Shown in pieces: positions 44,074 to 44,330 of a stretch of 64,000 bases of DNA (the first letter of the stretch is position 1; every line of letters starts with the position of its first letter). A model generated the notes under the pieces. It worked only from the letters and a program-made list of their open reading frames with translations. It made no database searches and was not told where the DNA came from. The stretch is from Sphyrna mokarran (lineage: Eukaryota). The stretch spans positions 31,992,001 through 32,056,000 of the forward strand of contig JAGIQG010000019.1 in NCBI GenBank assembly GCA_024679065.1, in the 5' to 3' direction. The translations under genes and the position numbers were made by a program.

Positions 44074-44330
44074 AAGTCTCACAACACCAAGTTAAAGCCC
44101 AACAGGTTTGTGTGGTAGCAAAAGCCTCTAGTTTTTGGGGCACTGCTCCTTCATCAAGTGAGAGTTCTGTTCACAAACAGAGCATATAAAGACATACATG
44201 TCTTTCTATGCCCTGTCTGTGAACAGAACTCCCACTTACCTGACAAAGGAGCAGTGCTCTGAAAGCTAGCGGCTTTTGCTACCAAATAAATCTGTTGGAC
44301 TTTAACCTGGTGTTATGAGACTTCTTACTG
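44074..44330. mobile_element. Best-preserved palindromic Penelope-like repeat; its left end (about 39497-39534) was displaced by the LINE insertion
   Basis: about 255-bp palindrome centred near 44197, with a hammerhead-like core in each arm. Confidence 0.8.

What the first reader, a model, noticed from the sequence alone, without database searches (positions are those of the whole stretch)
44074..44330. Multi-copy palindromic repeat with a minimal type I hammerhead ribozyme motif in its arms
Seen: five related copies (20848, 26645, 33428, 44074, 49226) plus a short fragment near 12960 share an arm with consensus TCAC-CTGA(T/C)GA-A-GGAGC-AGC-GCTCC-GAAA-GC-TA-GTG. This reads as stem I (UCAC/GUGA), CUGANGA, stem II hairpin, GAAA, a palindromic AGCU mini stem III and a UH cleavage site. 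No single copy is perfect, and several losses fit CpG decay (CUGACGA to CUGACAA, CCGAAA to CCAAAA); CUGAUGA is intact in the 49.3 kb copy and GAAA in the 33.5 and 44.26 kb copies. Established: Penelope-like elements carry such minimal, dimer-acting hammerheads in their pseudo-LTRs and often form inverted arrangements. Inference: an abundant non-autonomous ribozyme-bearing repeat lying in both orientations in ARF5 and SBF1 introns, able to form long pre-mRNA hairpins.
Basis: partly seen in the sequence, partly recalled or inferred. Interest (0 to 1): 0.75.

Follow-up and report, generated by a model that had tools for sequence, protein, structure and literature searches.

The report
Decayed Penelope retroelement ends with hammerheads
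The palindrome is the decayed stump of a Penelope-like jumping gene, two back-to-back copies of its end that each hold a mutated minimal hammerhead ribozyme motif predicted to be dead; the kind is known since 2014, and young intact relatives in the same genome keep a motif that likely still cuts.

Summary
Observation confirmed. The repeat is the 3' pseudo-LTR (pLTR) of a Penelope-like element (PLE) with RT and C-terminal GIY-YIG endonuclease. The finding is one insertion: two 5'-truncated ends joined head to head, a 'tail' on one end, a decayed 16-bp target duplication, and a later 4.5-kb LINE splitting the left arm (true extent 39500-44330). The family majority keeps CUGANGA and GAAA, and stems I and II show compensatory changes between old and young subfamilies. 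None of the 9 arms in the window keeps an intact core. It is not a MITE. Nor is it a separately spreading non-autonomous unit: inversion points vary, so the mirror arm is likely made anew at each insertion. A young subfamily has 7,787 exact two-anchor hits and 10 intact 893-codon ORFs among 51 long copies. In it, non-core ribozyme positions vary far more than neutral sites (7/18 vs 9/254) while the core has no shared variant (0/13). This measures a variability already remarked on in 2014. Cleavage and expression were not shown. The scan found the same kind earlier in other shark-like genomes. Known kind, low interest.

The parts
39484..39499 (.). Left target-site duplication of the PLE insertion (12 of 16 bases match 44331-44346)
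   Evidence: read from the flanks printed
39500..39534 (-). Displaced outer end of the left arm: 22 nt of the PLE 'tail' (39500-39521) plus the last 13 nt of the pLTR
   Evidence: (30-nt hit, 96.7%)
39535..44073 (+). Later LINE insertion (AP-endonuclease plus RT) inside the left arm, 6-bp target duplication 39529-39534 = 44074-44079
   Evidence: sibling at 21144-23643 is 90-97% alike
44074..44195 (-). Left arm: inverted, 5'-truncated pLTR 3' end
44125..44161 (-). Minimal hammerhead motif of the left arm, decayed (C3 to U, G12 to A, G15.2 to A)
   Evidence: sequence, descriptor fails
44198..44330 (+). Right arm: 5'-truncated pLTR 3' end, 84-88% identical to pLTRs that follow RT/GIY-YIG ORFs (L076, L073)
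44236..44272 (+). Minimal hammerhead motif of the right arm, decayed (G8 to A; first stem II pair G-U); predicted cut after 44268
   Evidence: sequence, descriptor fails
44285..44290 (+). AATAAA, candidate poly(A) signal of the pLTR
   Evidence: sequence; function inferred
44331..44346 (.). Right target-site duplication
20846..21049 (.). Second head-to-head insertion, right arm partly deleted, tail on the right; last intron of the Arf gene
26640..26862 (.). Third head-to-head insertion, tail on the left; between the stop codons of the two convergent genes
33428..33557 (+). Single pLTR arm; intron between two PH-domain exons of the SBF-type gene
49225..49441 (.). Fifth insertion, short head-to-head arms, tail on the right; intron of the SBF-type gene

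Best explanation
The palindrome is an old insertion of a Penelope-like retrotransposon, made of two short copies of the element's 3' end joined head to head, each with a mutated minimal hammerhead motif that is predicted to be inactive. How it arose (inferred from known PLE biology and the shown anatomy): the element's GIY-YIG endonuclease makes a staggered cut of about 10-16 bp. RT starts on the element RNA at one of two nearby sites, one of which adds the tail that runs up to the start codon. It stops after about 130 nt, and a second, inverted short cDNA completes the insertion. A LINE later landed in the left arm. In the active element the hammerhead sits in both pLTRs and lacks its own stem III; it would cut only when two copies pair through the AGCU palindrome, probably with help from the element's protein. 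It is kept by selection on the element, not on the host. The window copies are neutral relics whose only likely effect is an intronic RNA hairpin.
For: Shown: the arm is the 3' end of RT/GIY-YIG elements (27 of 30 loci found with ORF DNA carry a 100-nt or longer match to the window arm downstream; L076 has RT, endonuclease and an 84% identical arm). Full-length relatives have one 893-codon ORF with RVT_1 (E 8e-10) and GIY-YIG (E 3e-4, just under the cut-off) between direct pLTRs. The tail is on exactly one end in 16 of 16 old palindromes and is the stretch between pLTR end and ATG (including old-type L084). Exact target duplications of 10-16 bp occur in 26 of 49 young insertions against 0 of 147 mismatched pairs. 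Stems I and II pair in 87.3% of cells against 76.4 +/- 1.0 shuffled and at most 45.8% when slid, with changes on both sides at 6 of 10 pairs. Intact natural copies fold with stems I and II as the MFE in 5 of 6. Literature: min-HHRs in pLTRs of fish Neptune/Poseidon PLEs (PMC4209133); inverted truncated copy and tail (10.1101/2021.04.23.441226, PMC3846280); internal RT start explains the tail and the HHR is protein-assisted (PMC11167929).
Against: No cleavage was tested. Rfam models do not hit. The count of pairs with two-sided change does not beat the shuffle (173 of 500 reach it), and the covariation comes mostly from two subfamilies, so few independent events. In cofolding, none of 6 natural copies gave the dimeric hammerhead as the MFE; in 4 of 6 the stem II arms paired between strands instead, and the dimer structure scored 4-16 kcal/mol worse. 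The commonest young variants leave stem I only 2 Watson-Crick pairs. In PMC11167929 hammerhead mutants did not impair insertion in vitro, so its role in the cycle is open.
Confidence: 0.93

Rival explanations
1. The short palindrome is a non-autonomous element (retrozyme- or MITE-like retroposon) that was itself transcribed and copied by PLE proteins.
For: Short palindromes are abundant: 4 of 5 window copies; 17 distinct loci with arms of 118-152 nt. Solo pLTRs can be mobilised in trans (PMC3846280), and animal retrozymes derive from pLTRs (10.64898/2026.07.22.740005).
Against: Central junctions differ between copies, although these were picked for likeness to the query. Young inversions have arms of 80-2,982 nt. 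A transcript of the palindrome folds into one hairpin that buries both hammerheads. No tandem units, as retrozymes have, were seen at the window copies.
Confidence: 0.06
2. DNA-transposon MITE with terminal inverted repeats; the hammerhead is a chance reading.
For: Palindromic form and small size.
Against: The arms continue without a break into an RT/GIY-YIG ORF; target duplications vary in length and sequence; the tail is on one end only (16 of 16); the core is kept while stems covary.
Confidence: 0.005
3. This copy has been kept by the host as a regulatory intronic hairpin (editing substrate, splice modulator).
For: It lies in an intron of an SBF-type gene, folds very stably, and the right arm offers a consensus 5' splice donor on the host sense strand (44234-44242, read).
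Against: The arms are only 83% alike, no better than other copies; a LINE disrupted it; such arms occur at about 84 per Mb (21 in 250,818 nt). No RNA evidence was obtained.
Confidence: 0.03

Closest known systems
Minimal hammerheads (min-HHR) in pLTRs of metazoan Penelope-like elements (Cervera & De la Pena 2014, PMC4209133)
   Same: Type I, no loop 3, palindromic 15.2-16.2, extra base between 9 and 10.1, G10.1-C11.1, thousands of dispersed single copies, opposite-strand pairs 100-700 bp apart, high variability within a genome.
   Different: A shark family is not named in the parts I read or in the 2 supplement files searched (one further file could not be searched). Stem II here is 3-5 bp, shorter than the 7-8 bp given for Schistosoma.
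Neptune-type EN+ PLEs (Craig et al., 10.1101/2021.04.23.441226; Arkhipova et al. 2013, PMC3846280)
   Same: Single ORF, RT then C-terminal GIY-YIG, Cx4Cx2C linker, DKG motif, partial tandems, inverted 5'-truncated copy, 30-40 bp tail on one end, short target duplication.
   Different: Target duplications here are 10-16 bp, against 8-10 bp in the rotifer examples. Clade not confirmed by a tree with reference elements.
Poseidon_Ac of Anolis (Frangieh et al. 2024, PMC11167929)
   Same: pLTR hammerhead, tail explained by two internal RT start sites.
   Different: There the hammerhead overlaps the start codon and the tail lies inside the ORF; here the hammerhead lies about 100 nt upstream and the tail ends at the ATG. 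Poseidon lacks the cysteine linker.
Animal non-LTR retrozymes (Li et al., 10.64898/2026.07.22.740005)
   Same: pLTR-derived, non-coding, type I hammerhead; reported in the one chondrichthyan sampled.
   Different: Retrozymes are head-to-tail tandems; these copies are head-to-head pairs or single arms.

Membership tests
Penelope-like element (EN+) | Single ORF with RT and C-terminal GIY-YIG endonuclease linked to the repeat | tested here: met
   GIY-YIG Pfam score 21.3 is just below the 22.6 cut-off
Penelope-like element (EN+) | pLTRs from partial tandems, direct and inverted | tested here: met
Penelope-like element (EN+) | [quoted passage not shown] | tested here: met
   16 of 16 old palindromes; tail-to-ATG gap 35 nt
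Penelope-like element (EN+) | Short target-site duplication of variable length | tested here: met
   26 of 49 with exact 10-16 bp, control 0 of 147
Neptune clade | Cx2-5CxxC linker between RT and EN | tested here: met
   residues 755-763 of the L126 protein; shared with Nematis
Neptune clade | RT phylogeny with named reference elements | not tested
   no named reference PLE sequences came from any call
Minimal type I hammerhead | CUGANGA and GAAA core, U16.1, H17 | tested here: met
   family majority; 7 of 30 old and 20 of 30 young copies intact; 0 of 9 window arms
Minimal type I hammerhead | Stems I and II with compensatory change | tested here: met
   with the limit that changes come mainly from two subfamilies
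Minimal type I hammerhead | Dimeric fold through the palindromic stem III | tested here: inconclusive
   AGCU palindrome nearly invariant, but the dimer fold is not the cofold MFE in 6 of 6
Minimal type I hammerhead | Self-cleavage after position 17 | not testable with these tools
   needs in vitro assay or raw RNA ends
DNA-transposon MITE | Fixed-length target duplication and symmetric ends | tested here: not met
Non-LTR retrozyme | Head-to-tail tandem of hammerhead units | tested here: not met
   window copies are inverted pairs or single arms; not surveyed genome-wide

The most novel reading that the evidence does not exclude
In this shark's currently spreading Penelope family the hammerhead is the fastest-changing part of the element: N7, stem/loop II and the two bases beyond the cut turn over several times faster than silent sites, while the catalytic core stays fixed. 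The two ends of one insertion often carry different ribozyme variants. If this reflects local hypermutation of the RNA or diversifying selection (partner choice in the dimer, escape from silencing), the family, with intact ORFs and thousands of young copies, is a ready system for the open questions of why PLE hammerheads vary so much and whether they cut in vivo.
Probability: 0.25. Interest if true: 0.55.

Novelty: new member of a known kind. Interest (0 to 1): 0.2.

Why it matters
As a class it adds little: PLE hammerheads, inverted arms and tails are published. Practical value: (1) it identifies one of the commonest small palindromes of this genome (roughly 2 x 10^5 old-type arms by extrapolating 21 hits in 250,818 nt) as PLE stumps rather than MITEs or miRNA hairpins; (2) it points to a young vertebrate PLE with intact ORFs, 10-16 bp target duplications and natural hammerhead variants, usable to test what the ribozyme does in transposition, which PMC11167929 leaves open.

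Tried and rejected
Rfam scan of the window: no hammerhead at E up to 10. Idea that RT switches template at the hammerhead cut site: rejected, because sites either side of the cut stay linked (Cramer's V 0.91 between -34 or -25 and +35 in 94 ends); positions +3 and +4 are weakly linked to both sides (V at most 0.55 and 0.79), which fits recurrent mutation beside a T run. The ORF tree of 51 copies is ladder-like and some fourfold sites need 10-11 steps too, so the 11 steps at N7 and 20 for stem II types cannot be read as a rate (that script stopped early). RNA: no RNA holder listed; contigs of guessed-RNA runs of other organisms cover the element in many short pieces but showed no GT-AG joint among the 15 listed of 230 and 15 of 55 joints and cannot show ends, strand or level. 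L061, two cores 2 kb apart, was two separate stumps. Luense et al. (RNA Biol) was not held; I know it only through the review PMC6765202. Sequence look-up in earlier findings gave nothing. ARF5 versus other Arf genes and SBF1 versus SBF2 were not resolved.

Full report
Observation. The window lies in a 2.77-Gb genome; the element's closest named protein relatives are from sharks. The stretch 44074-44330 is an inverted pair of arms, 83% complementary, folding as one hairpin with z -21.8. The DNA search of the genome had 5,518 candidates, of which 40 were scored and all matched. An exact pattern for the intact core occurs 622 + 616 times, control 0. To avoid selecting on the core, I collected copies by two anchors outside the motif: 1,229 hits for the old type and 7,787 for a young type, and analysed the first 30 of each. 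The old-type column majority has the full core. A strict descriptor passes 7 of 30 old copies, 20 of 30 young copies, 0 of 9 window arms, and nothing else in the window. Rfam has no hammerhead among its 19 matches.

What the repeat is. Copies with an intact core share a fixed 3' end and extend 5' by variable lengths, up to about 800 nt, into a decayed GIY-YIG reading frame. Searching with that ORF DNA gave 30 loci (one is the query's own); 27 carry a match of 100 nt or more to the window arm just downstream. L076 holds RT, endonuclease and an arm 84% identical to 44200-44330. A search with the RT N-terminal part scored 150 of 9,371 candidates, many in long open frames. I fetched 56 of these; 51 gave a long copy reaching the 3' end, and 10 of the 51 have an unbroken 893-codon ORF from the ATG. 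Sixteen of the longest are 97.4% identical on average. Pfam finds RVT_1 and, just under its cut-off, GIY-YIG. The protein has the DKG motif and a Cx4Cx2C linker before the endonuclease, which Craig et al. give for Neptune and Nematis (10.1101/2021.04.23.441226, passages read). Relatives are 84-88% identical in three other shark genera and about 45% in turtles.

Anatomy of the insertion. In 16 of 16 old palindromes other than this one, the tail lies on exactly one end. The tail is the 35-nt stretch from the pLTR end to the start codon. Young insertions have exact target duplications of 10-16 bp in 26 of 49 cases with both ends in view, against 0 of 147 mismatched pairs; old palindromes share flank words of 6.7 nt on average against 3.2. 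At the finding, the left arm's end and 22 nt of tail lie at 39500-39534; a LINE with AP-endonuclease and RT frames fills 39535-44073 with a 6-bp duplication. The flanks 39484-39499 and 44331-44346 match at 12 of 16 bases. Arm lengths at 19 young inversion junctions run from 80 to 2,982 nt, and the 17 old palindromes have differing centres, so the mirror arm is likely made at each insertion (inferred). Host context: Arf exons on + from about 3.9 to 23.8 kb; myotubularin and PH exons on - from 61.7 to 32.9 kb (213 frames scanned). The finding lies in an intron between coding stretches near 44.9 and 38.5 kb (these two were assigned by recalled likeness to SBF proteins, not by Pfam).

Is the hammerhead real? 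I aligned 52 motifs: 24 of 30 young (6 exact duplicates dropped) and 28 of 30 old (L183 and L187 dropped for indels). The hammerhead pairs hold in 87.3% of cells (shuffles 76.4 +/- 1.0, 0 of 500 as high; slid partners at most 45.8%), with 88 cells changed on both sides (shuffles 40) at 6 of 10 pairs. The last count does not beat shuffling (173 of 500), and most changes separate the two subfamilies: one stem I pair (A-U to G-C) and three stem II pairs. Intermediate subfamilies show further stem II solutions. Natural intact copies fold with stems I and II in 5 of 6 cases, but the dimeric form is not the cofold minimum in any of 6. The features match the min-HHR of Cervera and De la Pena (PMC4209133, parts 1-2 of 4 read), who found low cleavage even in dimers. 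Frangieh et al. (PMC11167929, parts 1-2 of 4) found a PLE hammerhead that cuts only with the protein and is not needed for insertion in vitro. At the finding both motifs have core changes (left C3U and G12A, right G8A) and are predicted dead.

Variability in the young family. In 51 long copies chosen by RT score, diversity is 0.017 at non-CpG fourfold sites, 0.018 in the pLTR upstream of the motif, 0.12 across the motif and 0.003 at its 13 core positions. Shared variants occur at 12 of 24 non-core sites, 0 of 13 core sites and 9 of 255 fourfold sites. After removing every site that is CpG in two or more copies, the counts are 7 of 18 against 9 of 254 fourfold (nominal P 1e-5), 11 of 209 upstream and 7 of 52 downstream (P 0.04). 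Copies are related and the loop alignment is ambiguous, so these P values overstate. In 29 adjacent pairs of ends within 1 kb, the motifs differ at 40 of 1,087 bases against 264 of 20,520 upstream, and are identical in 9 of 29; L128, L201 and L212 join different shared variants, which suggests more than one template per insertion (inferred). Linkage does not break at the cut site. The simplest reading is strong selection on the core plus tolerated, partly CpG- and slippage-driven change around it. Cervera and De la Pena already noted this variability as unexplained.

Comparison and novelty. It works like, and by every feature tested is, an EN+ PLE with a minimal hammerhead. Inverted pLTR, tail and target duplication are described in PMC3846280 (passages); pLTR-derived retrozymes, including in one chondrichthyan, in 10.64898/2026.07.22.740005 (parts 1-3 of 5); the dimer model is reviewed in PMC6765202 and PMC6155905 (passages). 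Searches turned up no paper describing this shark family (search listings only); Repbase and Dfam could not be searched, bioRxiv supplements were closed and one supplement of PMC4209133 could not be read, so it may well be catalogued. Earlier agents of this scan reported the same kind in other shark-like genomes, after my own tests were done.

Verdict. Real feature, correctly spotted; a decayed member of a known kind. Interest 0.2.

Noticed in passing
window 44234-44242 (- strand): The antisense of stem I plus CUG reads as a consensus 5' splice donor; in the right arm it lies on the host gene's sense strand. The young family has the GC-donor version. It may be forced by the hammerhead sequence itself.
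   Followed up: partly
window 39535-44073 and 21144-23643: Two related LINE copies, 90-97% alike; the long one sits inside the PLE arm with a 6-bp duplication, the other begins about 100 nt from the 20.8-kb PLE copy.
   Followed up: partly
window 12960-12977: 18-nt piece of the pLTR end inside a SINE-like repeat; possibly a minimal PLE insertion; no hammerhead.
   Followed up: no
window 6545-6625 and 27202-27328: Two other near-perfect short hairpins that give below-threshold miRNA matches in Rfam; probably inversion or MITE relics.
   Followed up: no
window about 62070-63500: Long tandem array of a 14-bp unit.
   Followed up: no
L131:2298-5294: Intact young PLE inserted in a 30-bp minisatellite.
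   Followed up: no
P0050, P0051, P0082: Annotated shark proteins in which PLE ORF pieces are joined to host domains (GPCR, epsin); exonisation or annotation artefact.
   Followed up: no
P0053-P0055: The PLE protein is 84-86% identical in Heptranchias and Scyliorhinus; slow evolution or transfer between sharks was not tested.
   Followed up: no
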